Part shown: positions 1 to 51,509 of the stretch, piece by piece
How positions within the stretch are numbered: the stretch's first letter is position 1
Layout of the letters: every line of letters begins with the position of its first letter
Virus record (IMG/VR): IMGVR_UViG_3300034945_000013
Span: 1-51,509 of that record
DNA length: 51,509 bases
From: a virus
Lineage: Duplodnaviria > Caudoviricetes
Reading direction: 5' to 3' (one strand)
Translations under genes and position numbers: made by a program
The notes under the pieces: model-generated
The model's input: only the letters and a program-made list of their open reading frames with translations
What the model was told of the DNA's origin: nothing
Database searches by the model: none

Positions 1-98
1 GATACGCCCGCAACGTATACGGTAACGCGCTCACACATTATTCGCCACAGTGACGATTCTGGAATCCCCATAAAGTGTAAGGCGTGGGTGCCCAACGC
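1..98. repeat. Terminal direct repeat, left copy (circular assembly overlap)
   Basis: 1-98 is identical to 51410-51507; the next base differs (A at 99, T at 51508). Confidence 0.95.
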
Positions 99-108
99 AT
101 AGCTAAGG
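90..108 (-). mobile_element. Truncated attC site (only the R'/L' arm remains)
   Basis: GCCCAACGCATAGCTAAGG matches the arm of the complete site at 950 (GTCGAACGCATAGCTAAGG); no partner arm follows. Confidence 0.65.
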
Positions 109-130
109 ACACTGGCCCGGAGGGAAGGCG

Positions 131-337
131 ATGGAAGATTTGACAAGGCTTGAAGCGGCTGCACTGGAAGAAATGCGCGAGGGAACCAAGGTGAGCATTT
201 TTCACCCCTCGGATATTGTTGCGCAGGCGTGTGCATCGCTAGTGCGGAAGGGTTACGCAGAGATTGACGCGGACGGCTTGGCCTGGGTGCCAGTAGAGGT
301 GCCCAACGCTGAATTGAGGGGCGCGACTGATGACTGA
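131..337 (+). CDS. Cassette-associated hypothetical protein, 68 aa; C-terminus runs into attC
   Basis: GGAGGGAAGG precedes the ATG; ends VPNAELRGATDD within attC 301-389. Confidence 0.75.
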   Translation: MEDLTRLEAAALEEMREGTKVSIFHPSDIVAQACASLVRKGYAEIDADGLAWVPVEVPNAELRGATDD

Positions 338-389
338 ACAAAAGCACGACGACGCTTGCGGAGCGACCCGCTCGGATGCCGGGTTGGGC
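301..389 (-). mobile_element. attC site, 89 bp
   Basis: Minus strand reads GCCCAAC-CCGGC-ATCCGAGC...CCTCAAT-TCAGC-GTTGGGC (R'', 5 nt, 8-nt L'', 7-nt L', R'). Confidence 0.85.
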
Positions 390-599
390 GGCACGCTTTG
401 GTTGGCTGCCGGGACCACCGACGACGGTAAGCGCGTGTACCTACCCGACTATGCTGGGCAGACAGCCAACGAAGTCGGCATGAAGGTGATGGCGAGATCG
501 TACCAAGAGGGATTCCGGGGGGCGCTTGCTGAACGGCTGGCTACGCTGGGGTGGGAGATTGTATGCGTGCGGTTCGATGAAGTGACGCCCAACGCATGA
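330..599 (+). CDS. Cassette hypothetical protein, 89 aa; starts inside attC
   Basis: Overlaps the upstream stop; ends VTPNA at the next attC core. Confidence 0.7.
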   Translation: MTEQKHDDACGATRSDAGLGGTLWLAAGTTDDGKRVYLPDYAGQTANEVGMKVMARSYQEGFRGALAERLATLGWEIVCVRFDEVTPNA

Positions 600-656
600 A
601 TTTACAGGCGACCCGCAGCTTTATCGCGGGGCGTCCTGTGGAATGACGGGTTCGAC
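587..656 (-). mobile_element. attC site, 70 bp
   Basis: Minus strand GTCGAAC-CCGTC-ATTCCACA...TGTAAAT-TCATGC-GTTGGGC. Confidence 0.9.
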
Positions 657-680
657 AACACCGCAACCACGGAGAAAGAA

Positions 681-962
681 ATGACGCACATTGATGACTG
701 GCTAGATGACCCGACAACCGGCCCCGCCGACGTGAAGGAATGGCTTGAGCACTTCCGCAGGCCAGCGATTGACAAAGACCACGATTGGCTGCGCGCTCGG
801 CAATTGTTCTGTAACTACAAGGACGGCAAGCGTTACCGCTGCATTGGATGCAGCAGGATGGGCGACGTGTGGCTGACGGAGCATTTCGAGCGGGAGAACG
901 GCTACGACTTGCGGATTGACATTGCCGACTGCACCGACTGGGAAGTGGTGTCGAACGCATAG
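681..962 (+). CDS. Cassette hypothetical protein, 93 aa
   Basis: RBS GGAGA; ends VSNA at the attC core GTCGAAC. Confidence 0.85.
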   Translation: MTHIDDWLDDPTTGPADVKEWLEHFRRPAIDKDHDWLRARQLFCNYKDGKRYRCIGCSRMGDVWLTEHFERENGYDLRIDIADCTDWEVVSNA

Positions 963-1008
963 CTAAGGGACCGGCTTCAGCCGGTCCCGCTTGAGCGCCA
1001 GGTTCGGC
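950..1008 (-). mobile_element. attC site, 59 bp
   Basis: Minus strand GCCGAAC-CTGGC-GCTCAAGC-GGGACCGGCTGAAGCCGGTC-CCTTAGC-TATGC-GTTCGAC. Confidence 0.92.
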
Positions 1009-1028
1009 GCGGAACTGGAGGGAAGGCA

Positions 1029-1394
1029 ATGGATTTCAAGACGGAAACACAACTGCGGCAAGAGATTGCCGACGCTTGGCGGCTCGTGGACCAACACAAG
1101 CGCACAGCCGAGATTTACGCAGCAGAGCGAGACCACGCGAAAGCATGCTATGACCGCGGCGTTAGGATTTTGACCGGCATTCACGCGCTGCTCTATCCGC
1201 CGAGATTCACCGACAACGACGGCCGCACATGGCAATTCAAGTCGCCGCTCGCTGAAGAGCAGATGCAGGAATTGAGCGACCGCATTCGTTCGCTGCCAGA
1301 CGAGATTGCAGCAACTGATGAGGCCATGAAAGAGACGCCGAACGCTGAAATAACCGGGCGCACGCTGGCCCAAAACGAAGCCGATGGCGCTTAG
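1029..1394 (+). CDS. Cassette hypothetical coiled-coil protein, 121 aa
   Basis: RBS GGAGGGAAGG; C-terminus PNAEITGR... lies in attC 1337-1422. Confidence 0.85.
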   Translation: MDFKTETQLRQEIADAWRLVDQHKRTAEIYAAERDHAKACYDRGVRILTGIHALLYPPRFTDNDGRTWQFKSPLAEEQMQELSDRIRSLPDEIAATDEAMKETPNAEITGRTLAQNEADGA

Positions 1395-1422
1395 GGCGCT
1401 CCGGTTGATTGCCGGGTTAGGC
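1337..1422 (-). mobile_element. attC site, 86 bp
   Basis: Minus strand GCCTAAC-CCGGC-AATCAACC...GGTTATT-TCAGC-GTTCGGC. Confidence 0.9.
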
Positions 1423-1445
1423 ATTTTAACAATGGAGAGCAAACC

Positions 1446-1631
1446 ATGACAATAAAAGAGTTGATTTTAGAGTTGCTGAATGAGGACATGGGTGAGTATT
1501 TATATTTTCGCTATGAAGATGAGGCTGGCAATGTCCGATTTTTTCACCCTAATGGGATATGTTTTGATTCGGACAGATTCCAAAATATCCGTGGCGCTAA
1601 ATACACAACCATCTCTCTAGATGACGCATAA
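1446..1631 (+). CDS. Hypothetical protein, 61 aa, AT-rich
   Basis: RBS GGAGAG; directly follows attC 1337-1422. Confidence 0.75.
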   Translation: MTIKELILELLNEDMGEYLYFRYEDEAGNVRFFHPNGICFDSDRFQNIRGAKYTTISLDDA

Positions 1632-1640
1632 GGCTATGTG

Positions 1641-1674
1641 CCTTATAGAAAATTACACCTTATAGAAAGTTACA
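1641..1674. repeat. 17-bp tandem repeat, 2 copies
   Basis: CCTTATAGAAAATTACA followed by CCTTATAGAAAGTTACA. Confidence 0.85.
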
Positions 1675-1678
1675 ACCA

Positions 1679-2071
1679 ATGGTTTACAAATGCATAAAGC
1701 CGCAATGCCCGAGAGATTGCTCTGAATGCAACCACGCGCTGCCGGAGGAAGATGAGGCCGCGATGCTGGTGTGCGACCTGCTGGAGGACTTTGCCGTTGA
1801 CGGGTTCGGTGCGCCGCTTGAGGATGGCGAAAGCGAACTGGTTGACCGGTGGCGGGCATGGCTTGCCACACGACGCGGCGCGAGTTTGCCGGAATTGCCA
1901 ACTTGCACCAAATCGCAAACTGACGAGATTGAGCGGCTGCGAACCCTGGCAAAAGACGCCTACGACGCCTGGCAGCACGATAGGGATATGCGGGTAGGAA
2001 AATTACTGCTCGCAATGATGGACACGAAATTCAGCGCCACATACCGGCCTGACTTGGTGCCCAACGCTTGA
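1679..2071 (+). CDS. Hypothetical protein with Cys-rich N-terminus, 130 aa
   Basis: Ends LVPNA at attC core 2059; start codon uncertain. Confidence 0.7.
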   Translation: MVYKCIKPQCPRDCSECNHALPEEDEAAMLVCDLLEDFAVDGFGAPLEDGESELVDRWRAWLATRRGASLPELPTCTKSQTDEIERLRTLAKDAYDAWQHDRDMRVGKLLLAMMDTKFSATYRPDLVPNA

Positions 2072-2115
2072 ATTAAGGGGCTGCGCAGCAGTCCCGCTTG
2101 AATGAATTGTTAGAG
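2059..2115 (-). mobile_element. attC site, 57 bp, with aadA-type arms
   Basis: Minus strand CTCTAAC-AATTC-ATTCAAGC-GGGACTGCTGCGCAGCC-CCTTAAT-TCAAGC-GTTGGGC. Confidence 0.92.
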
Positions 2116-2220
2116 ATGGCTGAACGATGCCCCGGATGTGGACACAATTTTTATGACGACGCACCCGTGCGCAACGGCTTGTGCAAGTGGTGCGTGGCCG
2201 AGAAGGAATTGTTGGGCTAG
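2116..2220 (+). CDS. 34-aa CxxC...CxxC zinc-ribbon microprotein
   Basis: Manual translation MAERCPGCGHNFYDDAPVRNGLCKWCVAEKELLG; weak RBS. Confidence 0.5.
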   Translation: MAERCPGCGHNFYDDAPVRNGLCKWCVAEKELLG

Positions 2221-2234
2221 AACAGGAGCGAAGA

Positions 2235-2456
2235 ATGGAAAAGCAATACATGCTGCACCCCGGCAGAGTTATCAGTAAAACGGATCGGCAGGAGCACTTC
2301 ATTGATGCTCCGACGCTCGCACGCTTGTATGGCGTGAAGTTGCACGATTGCTTGATAGTTCCGATCAGCGATGCCCTTTACCCTGGGCATAGTGAGCGCC
2401 TCGACGTGATCCATCTTTACCCAAAGTCGAACGGCGATTACAAGGTGCCCAACTAG
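2235..2456 (+). CDS. Cassette hypothetical protein, 73 aa
   Basis: RBS AGGAG before ATG 2235; ends VPN at GCCCAAC 2447-2453. Confidence 0.8.
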   Translation: MEKQYMLHPGRVISKTDRQEHFIDAPTLARLYGVKLHDCLIVPISDALYPGHSERLDVIHLYPKSNGDYKVPN

Positions 2457-2513
2457 ATTTATACGACACGTCGCATAACCAGTTTAGCCTGATCTGACAG
2501 AAAGGAAATAGAC

Positions 2514-24917: not shown

Positions 24918-25406
24918 TCACCACCCCATCAACTGTAGGACTTCGTTGTAGGAAACTTCACCCTGCACCACCATCGTTGCCGGGTCTGCCACCGATCCGG
25001 CTCCGGTTGCGAACAGTGCCTCAAGCCGGTTTGCCGAACGCTTGCAATGACCCAGCACCACCGCCTGTACGGCGAGGTCGGCAGTGGTGCCTTTCCAGCA
25101 CTCGGCAATGCCTGCCCGCACGTTTGATTTGCTCGGGTCGATGGCGCGGCTGGAGTTGTAGAACAGCCACTCCCAGATGCGGGCCTTGCCGACTGACAGG
25201 TTATCGACCCGCACCCAGTCGAAACCATTTTGCATGATCTCGTCTTGCGAGACGGTCGTGCGCCAAACGGTATATGCCGGGCTTGCCGGTGCCTTGTAAG
25301 CCTCGATGATCGTGTTGATGGCGTTGGAGCTTGGGGCAAGCGCGGCCAGTGCGGGGTCGGCAAGAATCGCGGCCTTGAGTGTTGCCCGTTGTTCAGTGGT
25401 CAGCAT
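24918..25406 (-). CDS. Hypothetical late protein
   Basis: ORF with RBS AAGGA. Confidence 0.7.
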   Translation of the reverse strand: MLTTEQRATLKAAILADPALAALAPSSNAINTIIEAYKAPASPAYTVWRTTVSQDEIMQNGFDWVRVDNLSVGKARIWEWLFYNSSRAIDPSKSNVRAGIAECWKGTTADLAVQAVVLGHCKRSANRLEALFATGAGSVADPATMVVQGEVSYNEVLQLMGW

Positions 25407-41790: not shown

Positions 41791-43632
41791 ATGGTCATGA
41801 GCCTCAATATCGAACGTCTCGACGAGTACCCGGTGGTCAGTATCGACATTGAAAGCACGGGCTTGCATTGGCACACGGACAAGTTGTTCGGGGTCGCCAT
41901 CGCCGCATATGACGGCGAGCGCATTTATTCCGACTATTTTGACATCCGCACCAATGATAAGATTCTTCCGCTGCTTAGAGATAAGGTTCCCCAGATCAAG
42001 TTGTTGGTCAACCACAACGCCAAATTCGATGCCCACTTTCTGTTGAATGAAAGGGTGTTGATCCCAACGGATCGGATCGAGTGTACGATGGTACGGGCCG
42101 CGCTGATAAATGAATGGGAAACGTCGTTCTCGCTCGATGTCTTGGCCGGTAAGTATTTGAACGCGCGGAAGGTTGATATTTATCCGGAACTGGCGCGGTT
42201 GTTTGGTGGAGCACCGACACGGGCAGTGCAGATTAAGAATTTGCACCGTGCACCCGAGGCGTTGGCGCGGAAGTATGCCATCGAAGACCCGGTGTTGGCC
42301 ATCAAGCTGTGGTTGTGGCAGGAGGATGAGATAAAACGTCAGGGGTTGGAACAGGTGTGGCAGTTGGAGAAAGATGTACTGCCGGTTCTGTTGCGGATGG
42401 AGCGACAGGGCGTGCGTGTGGACGAGGACCGGGCGCACGAGTCACTGGGTGTATTGGATGTAAAGATAACCGAGGCCACCAATAGGCTGCATAAGGTTGC
42501 CGGACACGAGGTCAACGTCAATTCATCCAAACAGATGCGTTCCATGTTTGGTGTCGAAAAGAGGGATGACGGCGATTGGTATTGTGGCGCTTTCAAGTGT
42601 GAAACGACGGGCGGAGGGGAGGCATCAATTGACGCCGATGCCCTAAGGATATTAGACGGATTGGGTAACGATAAGGCCAAGGCGGTGCTGAACCTGCGAA
42701 AAATGATAAAGACCAAATCCTTTTTAAAGGATCACGTGATTGGCCATTCAATTGACGGCTTCGTGTACCCAAATTATAATCAGGCTCGCAGTGAAAACGG
42801 ATTGGGCACCGGCACCGGCAGGTTTTCCATCAACGATCCGGCGCTGCAGCAGATTCCGGCCAGAGACGTTGAAGTTGCGGAGATTGTCAGGTCATGCTTC
42901 ATTCCGGAGTATGGTAATGAATGGTGTTGTTTCGACTTTAAGCAATTTGAACAGCGGTGGTTTGGGCACTACGCCAACGATGAAAATGTTTACCAGATGT
43001 ACAGGGATGACCCAAATGTCGATTTCTACCAGATCATGGCCAACCTGACCGGACTGCCGAGGAATCCAGGCCACGCGGGGCAGGCGAATGCAAAACAGAT
43101 GACGCTTGCGGCGATCTTCGGAATGGGTGCGGGGAAACTGGCGAAAGAGATGGGCATGCCTTATATCGCCCAGAAGCGTGATGGTCACACGTATTATAAG
43201 GCAGGGAGAGAAGCGTACGCTGTGCTGGATAAATTCCACGGCGCGGTCCCCGGCATCCGTCACCACTTGGAAAGAGCCGAGTCAATCGCCAAATCGCGAG
43301 GCTACGTAAAAACGGTCATGGGCAGGCACCTCAGGTTCCCAAACGGAATGGGTGCACACAAAGCCGGGGGTCTGGTGTTGCAGGGGTCGGCTGCTGATTC
43401 ATTGAAGTTAAAAATGGTGCGGATAGCTAAATTGATAGGGGGTACCGACATCAAAATGTTGCTGTCAGTCCACGACGAGATTGATATGGACGTGCCACCA
43501 CATGAGAAGCATCTGATACCCGGCATCATCAAGGAGTATACGGCTTTTGATGGTGTTGAGGGGCCACTGTGTCGGACACCGATTATTTGCAACGCCGATT
43601 TTGGTGCAAACTGGTATGAGGCTTCAAAATGA
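41791..43632 (+). CDS. dpoZ: Family A DNA polymerase, DpoZ-like
   Basis: Exonuclease DIESTG/HNAKFD; motif A DFKQFEQR; motif B KQMTLAAIFG; motif C VHDE; close to purZ. Confidence 0.8.
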   Translation: MVMSLNIERLDEYPVVSIDIESTGLHWHTDKLFGVAIAAYDGERIYSDYFDIRTNDKILPLLRDKVPQIKLLVNHNAKFDAHFLLNERVLIPTDRIECTMVRAALINEWETSFSLDVLAGKYLNARKVDIYPELARLFGGAPTRAVQIKNLHRAPEALARKYAIEDPVLAIKLWLWQEDEIKRQGLEQVWQLEKDVLPVLLRMERQGVRVDEDRAHESLGVLDVKITEATNRLHKVAGHEVNVNSSKQMRSMFGVEKRDDGDWYCGAFKCETTGGGEASIDADALRILDGLGNDKAKAVLNLRKMIKTKSFLKDHVIGHSIDGFVYPNYNQARSENGLGTGTGRFSINDPALQQIPARDVEVAEIVRSCFIPEYGNEWCCFDFKQFEQRWFGHYANDENVYQMYRDDPNVDFYQIMANLTGLPRNPGHAGQANAKQMTLAAIFGMGAGKLAKEMGMPYIAQKRDGHTYYKAGREAYAVLDKFHGAVPGIRHHLERAESIAKSRGYVKTVMGRHLRFPNGMGAHKAGGLVLQGSAADSLKLKMVRIAKLIGGTDIKMLLSVHDEIDMDVPPHEKHLIPGIIKEYTAFDGVEGPLCRTPIICNADFGANWYEASK

Positions 43633-43814
43633 CCGAAGTGGCTAAACTGGATGATTTAGCAAATGAGCTTGTACGGGCGGCACGTGCTTTTGTGCGTGCC
43701 AAACGCAATAGGCATTACGCGCGTAAGCTCGGTGGTGGGAGAGAGGTGCTCGCTGGGTTGATGCGGGCGGTTGATGAGTATGAAACTGAAAAGGGGAAGC
43801 ATAATGGCTTATGA
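43629..43814 (+). CDS. Hypothetical protein
   Basis: ATGA-coupled to the polymerase. Confidence 0.6.
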   Translation: MTEVAKLDDLANELVRAARAFVRAKRNRHYARKLGGGREVLAGLMRAVDEYETEKGKHNGL

Positions 43815-44076
43815 CAACAACATGCGTGGTACTTTGGGCAAGAACAAGCGCAAGGAAAAAGACTCGCACCCCGACTACAGCGGCTCAGCCGAGATTGACG
43901 GAGTACAGTATTGGGTGTCGGGTTGGGTTAAGGCAAATGGCCAAACGGGAGAAAAATTTTTCTCACTGGCGTTTAAAGAGAAGGAGGACAACCTCGACCG
44001 CAGTGCCAAGGCCAAGGTTGATGCAAGTAGGCCGACACCGGATTTTGACGACCCGGATAACGACGTACCTTTCTGA
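43804..44076 (+). CDS. Small ssDNA-binding-like protein with acidic DVPF tail
   Basis: HPDYSG...YWVSGW and DDPDNDVPF. Confidence 0.75.
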   Translation: MAYDNNMRGTLGKNKRKEKDSHPDYSGSAEIDGVQYWVSGWVKANGQTGEKFFSLAFKEKEDNLDRSAKAKVDASRPTPDFDDPDNDVPF

Positions 44077-44086
44077 GGTAATGGTG

Positions 44087-44115
44087 TTGACGGACAGCGT
44101 CGGTCGTGGTACAAT
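44087..44115 (+). promoter_or_regulatory. Promoter of the purZ operon
   Basis: TTGACG-17-TACAAT. Confidence 0.7.
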
Positions 44116-44156
44116 GGCAGTTATAGAGCACATACGAATTTTTAAAGGAGTGGGAA

Positions 44157-45209
44157 ATGAAAGAGTTAGATATTGTAGTTGACTTACAATTTGGTAGCAC
44201 AGGCAAGGGGCTGCTCGCAGGCTTCCTTGCGGAAAAGAATCAATACGACACGATTGTGACGGCGTGGTCGCCGAATGCGGGACACACTTACATCAATGCC
44301 GATGGCGTTAAATTTGTGAATACGGCCATTCCTAACGGCATCGTATCGAACGGACTCAAACATGTTTTGATCGGCCCTGGTTCCATCATCAATCCGGACA
44401 CATTTCTGGCCGAGACGGAGGCGTATTCACTCTACCTTGATGGTATAGACGTGCTGATTCATGAAAACGCTGCTGTGGTCACACAAGCGCACCGTGACGA
44501 GGAAGCGGCTAGTATGTTTGCCATCGGCTCCACCATGAAGGGTTGTGGGGCCGCAATTGTTGACAAGATTCGTCGTAACCCCAAGCACAGCACCATTGCC
44601 CGTGATGCATTGATCGGGACACCACTTGAAGGGTTTGTGGTTACGGCACAGGAGTACAACCGGGTGCTTGATAGGGCTGACCGCGTGCTGCTTGAGGGCG
44701 CGCAAGGATTCTCACTCTCAATCAATCAGGGCTTTTACCCCTTCACTACCAGCCGAGATTGCACCACACACCAATTGTTGTCCGACTGTGCAATCCCACG
44801 TACTTGGCACCAGAACATGACCGTCTATGGGTGTGCCCGTACCTACCCCATTCGCGTGGCCAATCGTTTTGATACCGATGGCCGCATGGTTGGCACCAGT
44901 GGTCCGTGCTACGACGATCAGGAGGAGATTAAGTGGAGTAGGTTGGGGATGGAACCTGAGTTAACCACTGTGACGCAGTTGCCGCGTCGCATCTTTACCT
45001 TTTCACGGCAGCAGATTCGTGAAGCAATCCGGATGGATGGGGTTGACGAGGTCTTTCTCAATTTTGCTAACTACGTTCCGCTTGATAAAACTCCGGGTCA
45101 CATGGAGTTGGGTGATATGATCAGCACGATTGAAGATGCCGGTGCCGCAGTATCTTATCTGGGATTTGGGCCAAGCGTGCTTGATATTGTTGACAGAGGG
45201 GAAGAGTGA
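44157..45209 (+). CDS. purZ: PurZ, 2-amino-deoxyadenylosuccinate synthetase
   Basis: PurA fold with QFGSTGKG (Ser where PurA has Asp), NAGHT, EGAQG, ELTTVT and FLNFANY. Confidence 0.93.
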   Translation: MKELDIVVDLQFGSTGKGLLAGFLAEKNQYDTIVTAWSPNAGHTYINADGVKFVNTAIPNGIVSNGLKHVLIGPGSIINPDTFLAETEAYSLYLDGIDVLIHENAAVVTQAHRDEEAASMFAIGSTMKGCGAAIVDKIRRNPKHSTIARDALIGTPLEGFVVTAQEYNRVLDRADRVLLEGAQGFSLSINQGFYPFTTSRDCTTHQLLSDCAIPRTWHQNMTVYGCARTYPIRVANRFDTDGRMVGTSGPCYDDQEEIKWSRLGMEPELTTVTQLPRRIFTFSRQQIREAIRMDGVDEVFLNFANYVPLDKTPGHMELGDMISTIEDAGAAVSYLGFGPSVLDIVDRGEE

Positions 45210-48934: not shown

Positions 48935-49061
48935 ACCTGACCATGAAACAGAAGAGCGCCCTACACCAAGCCGCTGAACGTGGCCTACGCCGTGAGCAGC
49001 CCATCCGGGGCGGGCGAATTGTGTTCGCGCTTGCCTTGATCGTTATTTTGTGGGTGATGTT

Positions 49062-49457
49062 ATGAACTCTAACGAATTCGAGCAACTGCTGGATCGCTAC
49101 TGGAACCTTGCCCACGCAGAAGGGTACACGGGCGTTAGTCGTGGCGATGAGGCTAACCAAGTCCTGCATCGGCTGCGCGAAATGCACAAGGGGCAGGGTG
49201 AGCCGGTTGGATTTATCACAACAGATCATGCGGGATGCGAGGTTTTCACAAAAACCAGATTCAAGCTGAGGGGGCACGAGCAATTCCCCGTATACACCTC
49301 CGCCCCAACCATCACGGAAGGCTATGTGCTGGTGCCGGTGGAGCCTACGCCTGAAATGTTGATGGCCGCTGGCGATGCTGTTCATCCAGCCGGGTATTGG
49401 GGAACTGCATACCGCGCAATGCTAGCCGCCGCACCCAAGCAAGGAGAGACAGCATGA
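49062..49457 (+). CDS. Modular accessory protein, paralogue A
   Basis: EFEQLL.RYW.LAHAEGYTG N-terminal domain; VPVEPTPEML motif. Confidence 0.75.
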   Translation: MNSNEFEQLLDRYWNLAHAEGYTGVSRGDEANQVLHRLREMHKGQGEPVGFITTDHAGCEVFTKTRFKLRGHEQFPVYTSAPTITEGYVLVPVEPTPEMLMAAGDAVHPAGYWGTAYRAMLAAAPKQGETA

Positions 49458-49825
49458 ACAGCGAATTCGAGCAACTGCTAGGTCGCTATTGGGAACTTGC
49501 CCACGCAGAAGGGTACACGGGCGTTAGCCGCGGCGATGAAGCAAACGAAGTCCTGCATCGGCTGCGCGAAATGCACAAGGGGCGGGGGGAGCCGGTGGCA
49601 GAGGTATCTGATTGGCCGAATGATCGCACCCCGATGGCCATACTGCCGCTGGTGGAGTGGGATAAATTGCCGGTCGGCACCAAGCTCTACACCTCCGCCC
49701 CAACCATCCCGGCTGCACTTGACGAGTTCCTGCAAAAGCGTGAGCAGGATTCATTCTCGTGCAAGCAGCTTGTAGCTGATCTTCGCGTTCTGCTCGCCGC
49801 CGCACCCAAAGGAGAGACAGCATGA
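49454..49825 (+). CDS. Modular accessory protein, paralogue B
   Basis: Same N-terminal domain; LPVGTKLYT motif. Confidence 0.75.
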   Translation: MNSEFEQLLGRYWELAHAEGYTGVSRGDEANEVLHRLREMHKGRGEPVAEVSDWPNDRTPMAILPLVEWDKLPVGTKLYTSAPTIPAALDEFLQKREQDSFSCKQLVADLRVLLAAAPKGETA

Positions 49826-51298: not shown

Positions 51299-51509
51299 AT
51301 GAAAAATTGTTTGAACTGTAAGTATGAGCCGGATTGGTCAAAGCCAATTGGCGGTGAATACCCCAGGCGGAGCGGTGCCTGTAGATGGGAACTTGAAAAC
51401 CATCTACCAGATACGCCCGCAACGTATACGGTAACGCGCTCACACATTATTCGCCACAGTGACGATTCTGGAATCCCCATAAAGTGTAAGGCGTGGGTGC
51501 CCAACGCTT
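51299..51509 (+). CDS. Cys-containing protein spanning the contig junction, ending VPNA at an attC core (stop at 100-102)
   Basis: Manual translation MKNCLNCKYEPDW...CKAWVPNA. Confidence 0.7.
   Translation, partial: MKNCLNCKYEPDWSKPIGGEYPRRSGACRWELENHLPDTPATYTVTRSHIIRHSDDSGIPIKCKAWVPNA
51410..51507. repeat. Terminal direct repeat, right copy
   Basis: Identical to 1-98. Confidence 0.95.

What the first reader, a model, noticed from the sequence alone, without database searches (positions are those of the whole stretch)
90..2460. Phage-borne integron cassette array with attC sites inverted relative to the genes and no integrase
Seen in the sequence: five complete sites (301-389, 587-656, 950-1008, 1337-1422, 2059-2115). 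Read on the minus strand, each has canonical attC architecture: an R'' box ending AAC, a 5-nt spacer, an 8-nt L'' with the extra C, a stem-loop, a 7-nt L', a 5-6 nt spacer and a GTT-starting R'. The 2059 site carries the aadA-type arms AATTCATTCAAGC and TTAATTCAAGCGTT. Core sites pair across each gene as expected of excisable cassettes: GTTGGGC 383 with GCCCAAC 587, GTTCGAC 650 with GTCGAAC 950, GTTCGGC 1002 with GCCGAAC 1337, and GTTGGGC 2211 with GCCCAAC 2447. All cargo ORFs are on the plus strand, opposite to the usual bacterial cassette orientation, and co-directional with the phage early operon. I found no tyrosine recombinase in the genome. Inference: the phage uses attC/IntI chemistry, probably a host integrase in trans, to acquire and shuffle its own accessory genes. 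This would be a phage-specific reversed-cassette system.
Basis: partly seen in the sequence, partly recalled or inferred. Interest (0 to 1): 0.95.

Follow-up and report, generated by a model that had tools for sequence, protein, structure and literature searches.

The report
Phage attC cassette array, genes reversed
A complete phage genome with no integrase carries a real array of integron-type gene cassettes whose recombination sites sit upstream of each gene, the reverse of bacterial integrons, and the same kind of cassette is found swapped between unrelated phages at the integron crossover point.

Summary
Window 90-2453 holds five complete attC sites, two half sites and one terminal core box between small plus-strand ORFs.

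- **Site identity.** A covariance model built only from the five sites finds true attC sites in 2 class 1 integrons and 8 chromosomal integrons. Every hit lies on the intI coding strand, which is the bottom strand.
- **Reversed polarity.** In the phage, and in about 35 other viral or metagenome contigs, that same strand is the coding strand. So the cassettes are inverted.
- **No recombinase.** No tyrosine or serine recombinase was found in this complete genome. A second complete array-bearing virus also has no tyrosine recombinase.
- **Shuffling in nature.** Identical [attC + ORF] units occur in four unrelated contexts, and identity breaks within the invariant AAC(G) at both ends. In 46 of 55 informative cases the 3' core box complements the next site's 5' box, not its own.
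- **Cargo.** ORFs on the coding strand match phage protein families; antisense ORFs match none.

The enzyme, presumed to be a host IntI acting in trans, is inferred and not shown.

Phage attC clusters without an integrase were published in 2023. The consistent reversed polarity and the natural shuffling were not found in print. I rate this a new variant of a known kind.

The parts
1..102 (+). 3' end of ORF c0. It starts at 51299; window 1-100 repeats 51410-51509. The ORF ends ..VPNA* inside the first core box.
90..108 (+). Half site: a 5' box GCCCAAC, a spacer and the start of the L arm. The 3' arm is missing (deletion remnant).
   Evidence: Read by comparison with site 950. Not found by model R1.
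131..337 (+). ORF c1 (68 aa). It reads 31 nt past the AAC into site S1.
   Evidence: no Pfam or PHROG hit
301..389 (+). attC site S1 (bottom-strand polarity on +). The ATG of c2 lies in its loop.
   Evidence: (76 bits)
330..599 (+). ORF c2 (89 aa)
587..656 (+). attC site S2
   Evidence: (63.8 bits)
681..962 (+). ORF c3 (93 aa). Its stop codon lies beyond AA|C, in the next site's spacer.
950..1008 (+). attC site S3. It resembles a chromosomal attC next to intI in a genome of the order searched (L117 14364-14426, 61 bits).
1029..1394 (+). ORF c4 (121 aa), function unknown. It has 119 homologs. The family was used to fetch related arrays.
1337..1422 (+). attC site S4. Positions 1343-1414 are identical in a contig from a groundwater run.
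   Evidence: (75.7 bits)
1423..1640 (+). Low-GC insert (38.5% against 58.9% to its left) holding ORF c5 (1446-1631). It is not bounded by attC sites and is absent from one contig of a sediment run.
   Evidence: (joint 1422->1641)
1679..2071 (+). ORF c6 (130 aa, two modules). Homologs end ..YRPDLVPNA followed by varied tails.
2059..2115 (+). attC site S5, aadA7-type arms
2116..2220 (+). ORF c7 (34 aa, CxxC..CxxC). It reads through the remnant 3' arm that follows.
2202..2217 (+). Remnant 3' arm plus the box GTTGGGC of a site whose 5' half is lost
   Evidence: (repeat D5)
2235..2456 (+). ORF c8 (73 aa, phrog_7644), the last cassette. Its homolog is also the last cassette in viral contig L014.
2447..2453 (+). 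Terminal lone 5' box GCCCAAC, the right-hand junction of the array with the phage backbone
   Evidence: A lone GCCTAAC ends the array in L014 in the same way.

Best explanation
**What it is.** Window 90-2453 is a genuine array of integron gene cassettes in a complete, integrase-less virulent-type phage. [quoted passage not shown] Each mobile unit is [C + attC hairpin + GTTRRRY + ORF + RYYYAA]. The attC site therefore lies 5' of its gene, and its recombinogenic bottom strand is the coding strand. This is the reverse of bacterial cassettes.

**How it most likely works.** Units are excised and inserted by an integron integrase that cuts the folded bottom strand at AA|C. The phage encodes no such enzyme, so the integrase is most likely supplied by an integron-bearing host during infection. 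The array probably grew from cassette insertion at an ordinary ..AA|C.. target at the end of ORF c0. Two sites have since decayed by deletion.

**Consequences.**
- Phages swap small accessory genes.
- Several ORFs borrow their stop codon or C-terminal tail from the neighbouring cassette.

**Shown (computationally).** Site identity, polarity, absence of a phage recombinase, and natural shuffling at AAC.

**Inferred.** The enzyme, its host origin, and the reason for the reversal.
For: **1. Site identity.**
- S5 aligns to the aadA7 and fosI attC sites.
- Model R1, built from the five sites alone, finds aadA7, fosI and aac(6')-Il attC sites.
- R1 gives 34 hits next to intI in 8 chromosomal integrons.

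**2. Polarity.**
- All 37 control hits lie on the intI strand. In some searches the resistance genes lie on the opposite strand.
- In the chromosomal integrons the longest ORF is on the opposite strand in 22 of 24 intervals.
- In phage-type arrays, 112 of 112 hits lie on the + strand as each source was oriented. These are 5 window sites, 3 plasmid attC sites and 104 hits in contigs oriented by the c4 homolog. A further 4 of 4 hits in GenBank MW202573 lie on the strand of its annotated CDSs.

**3. Coding strand.**
- Among 49 same-strand ORFs from other arrays, 20 PHROG families were matched at E<=1e-5. Among 43 antisense ORFs, none were.
- Substitutions by codon position in the + frame are 920/891/2019 (these are mostly c4 pairs).

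**4. Shuffling.**
- Seven c4 gene pairs are at least 98% identical and have both flanking sites. In 5 the upstream site is more alike than the downstream one (for example 1.0 against 0.37, and 0.93 against 0.35). In 2 they are equal. In none is the downstream site more alike.
- Alignments A4 and A5 lose identity right after ..TAACG.
- In A6, four contigs from four data sets are identical from AACG.. onward and unrelated before it.
- A7 shows a hybrid: one contig has the flank of one partner and the site of another.

**5. Hybrid core boxes.** The 3' box complements the next 5' box in 46 of 55 informative pairs and its own in 2.

**6. Structure under selection.**
- 89.7% of cells are paired, against 76.4% in shuffles and 24-48% when the partner is slid.
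- 7 of 9 L-box pairs show changes on both sides. The alignment was fitted to the model.

**7. No phage enzyme.**
- No PF00589 or PF00239 match in the window.
- No recombinase among 84 window proteins scanned against Pfam.
- No PF00589 match in the second complete virus, G003.
- The window, G003 and MW202573 share no protein except the c4 cassette at E<=1e-4.

**8. Candidate donors of the enzyme are common.** IntI is over the family cut-off in 127 of 301 genomes of one order. Two of those genomes are flagged unpublished; without them it is 125 of 299.

**9. Published precedent.** IntI1 recombined 5 of 6 attC sites from virulent phages (PMC9892861, section 3.4 read).
Against: - No recombination was observed. 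The enzyme is inferred.
- The host is unknown.
- The one integron-bearing MAG that carries a c4 homolog (G004) has no R1 hit.
- In the probable source run no alternative junction was seen, but only contigs were available.
- The phage carries PurZ- and DpoZ-like genes. If its DNA holds 2-aminoadenine instead of adenine, whether IntI accepts such sites is unknown.
- Two half sites, and the 6 of 7 match at 1416/2059, show decay. This particular array may be partly frozen.
- Most related loci were fetched through one gene family (c4), so the polarity counts are conditioned on it. MW202573 is the only example found independently of c4.
- Folding energies are mostly no better than shuffles.
Confidence: 0.72

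Rival explanations
1. Frozen relic. The cassettes were once assembled by integron chemistry, in an ancestor or in another phage. In this phage the array is now a static stretch of accessory genes that no longer recombines.
For: - Half sites at 90-108 and 2202-2217.
- A low-GC insert without attC sites at 1423-1640.
- An imperfect 1416/2059 pair.
- No variant junction in the source run's contigs.
- Possible Z-DNA.
Against: - Five sites keep full attC architecture and score 53-76 bits.
- Four of five across-gene box pairs are perfect.
- S4 is identical over 72 nt to a contig from a run of another study and year.
- The same cassette family is demonstrably mobile in nature.
Confidence: 0.15
2. A phage-encoded recombinase of an unrecognised family, not a host IntI, acts on the hairpins.
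For: - Most of the small ORFs in the window have no family assignment.
- A NUMOD3-motif protein and an SNase-like nuclease exist somewhere in the genome.
Against: - Three array-bearing complete genomes share no protein other than a cassette.
- The sites are the same kind as chromosomal attC sites beside intI.
- The crossover maps to the IntI cleavage site.
- IntI1 is known to act on phage attC sites (PMC9892861).
Confidence: 0.08
3. The hairpins are regulatory or boundary elements (terminators, RNA processing sites, or repeats that guide homologous recombination), and their likeness to attC is incidental.
For: - They lie between genes of one operon and would be present in the mRNA.
- Phage genomes are known to hold intergenic repeats (recalled, not tested).
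Against: - No excess of terminator-like sites: 4 found against 3.9 expected, and none is one of the five sites on the + strand.
- No Rfam family matches.
- Downstream partners only 35-37% identical are joined at the same 3-4 invariant bases, which homologous recombination cannot explain.
- A 3' box that complements the next site rather than its own (46 against 2) has no use in a hairpin but is the signature of cassette exchange.
Confidence: 0.03

Closest known systems
CALINs in phage genomes (Qi, Rajabal, Ghaly, Tetu, Gillings 2023, PMC9892861; abstract, section 3.4 and found passages read; figures and supplements not seen)
   Same: - Clusters of attC sites without an integrase in virulent phages.
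- Small ORFs and methyltransferases as cargo.
- One of their examples, MW202573, has the same polarity as this window: 4 of 4 R1 hits lie on the CDS strand.
   Different: - The text I read does not remark on attC polarity relative to the genes. It calls the TJE1 and PH101 arrays 'typical'.
- It reports no natural shuffling between phages.
- The window's phage is a different backbone with Z-genome-type genes.
- TJE1 gives one weak hit on the strand opposite its genes, so it looks canonical.
Bacterial chromosomal and mobile integrons
   Same: - Same site architecture.
- Same hybrid core boxes.
- Crossover mapped to the same AAC.
- R1 cross-detects their attC sites at up to 61 bits.
   Different: - They have intI beside the array; this genome has none.
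- Their ORFs lie on the top strand with the attC site 3' of the gene (22 of 24 intervals). Here the ORFs lie on the bottom strand with the attC site 5' of the gene.
- No attI site or Pc promoter was identified here.
Cassette insertion outside att sites ('attG' route, SALIN/CALIN origin; bioRxiv 10.1101/2022.09.11.507474, passages read)
   Same: It offers a way for an array to start in a genome without attI. The window's array ends in a lone ..AA|C box on the right and starts at a ..AA|C at the end of ORF c0.
   Different: That route was shown in E. coli chromosomes with IntI1. Nothing here shows how or when the first phage insertion happened.
Inverted cassettes inside bacterial chromosomal integrons (for example toxin-antitoxin cassettes; recalled, not tested here)
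   Same: The ORF lies on the attC bottom strand.
   Different: In bacteria these are a minority with their own promoters. Here whole arrays are uniformly inverted and are read by the phage's own operon.

Membership tests
attC site (59-base element) | Inverse core RYYYAAC and core GTTRRRY at the two ends | tested here: met
   5 of 5 window sites. AAC and GTT are invariant in 92 distinct related sites.
attC site (59-base element) | Imperfect inner inverted repeat (L boxes) with unpaired extra bases on one arm, which gives the site its polarity | tested here: met
   - An unpaired G in the 3' arm of all five sites, read from A3.
- L helix 91.5% paired, with 7 of 9 pairs changing on both sides.
- Strong strand discrimination: 37.5 against 8.7 bits for the same site on the two strands.
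attC site (59-base element) | Likeness to experimentally validated attC sites | tested here: met
   - S5 against the aadA7 attC site: arms identical over 15 and 19 nt.
- R1 finds 37 attC sites in 10 integrons.
attC site (59-base element) | Recombined by an integron integrase as a folded bottom strand | not testable with these tools
   Needs a conjugation or excision assay. Published for other phage attC sites (PMC9892861).
Integron gene cassette | Discrete unit found in different contexts, bounded at the core-site crossover | tested here: met
   - the same attC+ORF unit occurs in four contexts, with breaks within AAC(G).
- the 3' box complements the next 5' box in 46 of 55 informative pairs.
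Integron gene cassette | Canonical layout: ORF on the top strand, attC site 3' of the ORF | tested here: not met
   ORFs lie on the bottom-strand side and the attC site is 5' of the ORF.
Complete integron | intI gene adjacent to the array | tested here: not met
   - No PF00589 match at E<=10 in the whole record.
- Local tblastn with IntI1 finds nothing convincing in the window; the best E-value is 1.9.
Complete integron | attI site and Pc promoter | tested here: inconclusive
   - Nothing recognisable beyond the lone box at 2447-2453.
- attI sites have no general model.
- Promoter-like matches are at chance level.
[quoted passage not shown] | Two or more attC sites close together and no intI nearby | tested here: met
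   Five sites within 1.8 kb and no integrase. The threshold definition is recalled from the IntegronFinder papers.

The most novel reading that the evidence does not exclude
A separate, phage-borne pool of 'antisense' integron cassettes exists.

- **Who carries it.** Unrelated phages keep arrays of [attC + ORF] units whose recombinogenic strand is the coding strand. Examples are a siphovirus with Z-genome-type genes, a P22-like podovirus and others.
- **How units move.** They are traded at AA|C using host integron integrases during infection.
- **Why reversed (speculative).** The reversal may put the folding strand on the non-template and probably lagging-strand side, which would favour recombination.
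- **What follows if true.** Phage genes captured by a host integron would be silent, and host cassettes captured by a phage would also be silent. Two gene pools could then share one recombination machinery without cross-expression.
Probability: 0.5. Interest if true: 0.85.

Novelty: new variant of a known kind. Interest (0 to 1): 0.78.

Why it matters
- **A site-specific route to phage mosaicism.** Integrons are seen as bacterial devices, and phage attC clusters have been treated as stray fragments or as vehicles for bacterial cassettes. Here the cassettes are phage genes in a layout of their own, moved between unrelated phages at the integron crossover point. Phages would then borrow a host recombinase to diversify accessory genes, possibly anti-defence ones. 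Methyltransferases are among the cargo of related arrays.
- **An open question becomes testable.** The reversed layout bears on how ORFs become joined to attC sites.
- **A biochemical question.** Can an integron integrase act on 2-aminoadenine DNA?

Tried and rejected
**Searches that found nothing useful**
- No near or distant DNA relative of the array exists in GenBank phages. With site 2059 alone, only the phage P1 aadA site and MW202573 came up.
- c8 and PurZ as single queries found no relative in viral contigs. An alignment of c6 homologs also found none.
- Cassette ORFs: no Pfam family matched, and only c8 matched a PHROG of unknown function.
- The Atlas gave c4 only unnamed clusters.
- Rfam gave no credible match.

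**Ideas tested and rejected**
- Terminator role: no excess of terminator-like sites.
- Folding energy is mostly no better than shuffles, so it does not identify the sites.
- GC by codon position discriminated the strands only weakly. I replaced it with PHROG hits and substitution counts.

**Host search**
- Two Rubrivivax MAGs and one Desulfovibrio MAG hold c4 homologs.
- One of them, G004, has a true IntI but no R1 hit.
- No host can be named.

**Runs**
- The probable source run X1 showed no alternative junction, and only contigs were available.
- Joints seen in other runs (383->2451, 1009->296, 1020->952) come from diverged contigs laid at 85% likeness. I use them only as hints.
- The window's last bases differ from the overlapping copy by one letter at position 99. 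That letter matches the continuation of site 2059. This is too little to call a variant junction.

**Limits of the evidence**
- No cassette other than c4 was shared between the fetched loci. The unit test therefore rests on one gene family, plus protein tails in c6.
- Lone pattern matches at 25033, 25823 and 41267 have no R1 hit and are taken as chance.
- Figures and supplementary tables S1-S2 of PMC9892861 were not seen. They may already show site polarity for the 17 phage CALINs.
- That reversed phage cassettes are not in print rests on three searches.

Full report
**The record.** The window is a whole virus record of 51,509 bp, rated 100% complete. Its first 100 bases repeat its last 100 with one mismatch, so the assembly closes on itself.
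- A minus-strand structural module at about 4.3-30.5 kb holds the terminase, the portal, a P22-like coat protein and a tail protein.
- A plus-strand replication module runs from 30.6 kb across the end of the record into 1-3.9 kb. It holds a primase-helicase, an SNF2 helicase, a family A polymerase and an adenylosuccinate-synthetase-like gene.
- The finding lies at the far end of that plus-strand module.

- Five sites stand at the stated coordinates. Each runs from NNNNAAC to GTTNNNN on the + strand.
- GYCSAACGC occurs 10 times against 2.9 expected, and 7 of the 10 lie in the array.
- I add a 5' half site at 90-108, a 3' arm remnant at 2202-2217 that ORF c7 reads through, and a lone terminal box at 2447-2453.
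- Folding energy alone is unimpressive. Only site 950 beats its shuffles.

**They are attC sites.**
- Site 2059 matches attC sites of aadA7, aadA10, fosI and aac(6')-Il cassettes in 3246 plasmid records. It shares both arms letter for letter with the aadA7 site.
- I built covariance model R1 from the five window sites only.
- R1 finds the aadA7, fosI and aac(6')-Il attC sites in two class 1 integrons.
- As a wider control I located integron integrases in one bacterial order: 127 of 301 genomes are over the family cut-off. Two of those genomes are flagged unpublished; without them the count is 125 of 299.
- I fetched the DNA beside intI in 8 of those genomes. R1 gave 34 hits there, all just upstream of intI and all on the intI coding strand. 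The best scored 61 bits, within the range of the phage's own sites.
- On 92 distinct related sites the inner helix is 91.5% paired, and 7 of its 9 pairs change on both sides. Shuffled and slid controls are far lower. That alignment was fitted to the model.

**Polarity.**
- With the locus turned to match the phage + strand, aadA7 lies on the minus strand and intI1 lies to the right. The phage + strand therefore corresponds to the attC bottom strand.
- In the 8 chromosomal integrons the longest ORF lies opposite the R1 strand in 22 of 24 intervals, which is the canonical layout.
- In the phage all ORFs are on the R1 strand.

**The phage is not alone.**
- ORF c4 (1029-1394) has 119 homologs.
- Loci encoding them were fetched from three collections: 17 viral, 69 metagenome and 3 genome loci.
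- R1 hits lie beside the gene in 5 of the 17 viral loci and 30 of the 69 metagenome loci. Some contigs hold up to 11 sites.
- Every hit, 22 of 22 and 90 of 90, is on the + strand as each source was oriented. For the fetched contigs that is the strand coding the c4 homolog.
- For the other cassettes in those arrays, 20 PHROG families were matched among 49 same-strand ORFs, including DNA methyltransferases. None were matched among 43 antisense ORFs.
- GenBank phage MW202573 is a published CALIN example without a c4 homolog. It shows 4 of 4 hits on the strand of its annotated genes.
- Tetrasphaera phage TJE1 gives one weak hit on the opposite strand. The reversal is therefore a class of phage arrays, not a rule for all.

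**Cassettes move, and they move as the chemistry predicts.**
- Near-identical c4 genes share their upstream site but have unrelated downstream sites.
- Alignments lose identity right after ..TAACG at the gene's end.
- Four contigs from four data sets are identical from AACG.. of the upstream site onward and unrelated before it. A fifth contig is a hybrid of two others, joined at the same place.
- The unit is therefore [C, attC, GTTRRRY, ORF, RYYYAA], cut within the invariant AAC(G) at both ends. This is what cleavage of a bottom strand lying on the coding strand would give.
- The 3' box complements the next site's 5' box in 46 of 55 informative pairs, its own in 2 and neither in 7. This is the classic mark of cassette exchange.
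- Protein tails after ..PNA vary among c4 homologs and c6 homologs. In this window several ORFs take their stop codon from the neighbouring cassette.

**Which enzyme.**
- The window has no tyrosine or serine recombinase in six-frame scans.
- None appears among 84 proteins scanned against Pfam.
- A second complete virus with an array, G003, also has no tyrosine recombinase.
- The window, G003 and MW202573 share no protein except the c4 cassette. A common phage-encoded recombinase is therefore unlikely.
- A host IntI acting in trans is the simplest reading, and IntI1 is known to accept phage attC sites (PMC9892861, section 3.4). It remains an inference. The host is unknown.

**A complication.** The polymerase and the adenylosuccinate-synthetase-like gene are closest to those of known 2-aminoadenine phages. 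An HD-domain protein is also present. If the DNA carries that base, IntI activity on it is untested. G003 lacks the synthetase gene, so the arrays are not tied to such phages.

**Comparison and novelty.**
- Clusters of attC sites in virulent phages were reported in 2023.
- In the text I read, and in three searches, I found no mention of uniform reversal of gene and site polarity. I also found no mention of phage-type cargo, or of evidence that such units are exchanged among unrelated phages at the integron crossover.
- Figures and supplements of that paper were not seen.
- I rate this a new variant of a known kind.

Noticed in passing
window 41791-45206: A family A DNA polymerase (41791-43629) is 40-45% identical to polymerases of Salmonella phage PMBT28, Acinetobacter phage SH-Ab 15497 and Vibrio phage phiVC8, one of which is annotated DpoZ. 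A 350-aa adenylosuccinate-synthetase-like gene (44157-45206) is about 50% identical to phage genes annotated as 2-aminooxy adenylosuccinate synthetase. An HD/YfbR-like protein is also present in the plus-strand module. Together these suggest a 2-aminoadenine (Z) genome.
   Followed up: partly
window 1423-1674: A low-GC stretch (38.5%) holds ORF c5 (1446-1631). It is followed by a 17-nt tandem direct repeat at 1641-1674. A contig from a sediment run joins 1422 to 1641 with 7 other letters between, so the stretch looks like a separate insertion that is not bounded by attC sites.
   Followed up: partly
window 49050-49825: Two neighbouring ORFs begin with nearly the same roughly 45 residues (..NEFEQLL.RYW.LAHAEGYTGVSRGDEANQVLHRLREMHKG..). 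They look like a tandem duplication with diverged C-terminal halves.
   Followed up: no
window 1-100 and 51410-51509: A 100-nt terminal overlap with a single mismatch at position 99 (A against T). The T version equals the continuation of site 2059. This could be an assembly branch at the repeated core box or a plain error.
   Followed up: partly
window, plus-strand and small minus-strand ORFs (alignments A8, A9): Other families found in the genome: a C-5 cytosine DNA methylase, Pam3 gp32/33/34-like proteins, an Rv2179c-like exonuclease, a NUMOD3-motif protein (possibly a homing endonuclease), an SNase-like nuclease and an M15 peptidase. I did not map each one to its ORF.
   Followed up: no
L121 (Tetrasphaera phage TJE1, NC_019930) 1016-1075: The only R1 hit in this published CALIN phage (18 bits) lies between orf2 and orf3 on the strand opposite the genes. 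This is the canonical cassette layout, unlike the window and MW202573.
   Followed up: partly
Genomes of the order of G004: Integron integrases over the family cut-off occur in 127 of 301 sampled genomes of this order. Two of them (G300, G032) are flagged unpublished. This is a very high share.
   Followed up: no
Alignment A12 (c6 homologs): c6 is built of two modules joined at ..PELPTCTKSQT... Each module also occurs with other partners. The gene bodies are therefore reshuffled by a second process that does not involve attC sites.
   Followed up: no
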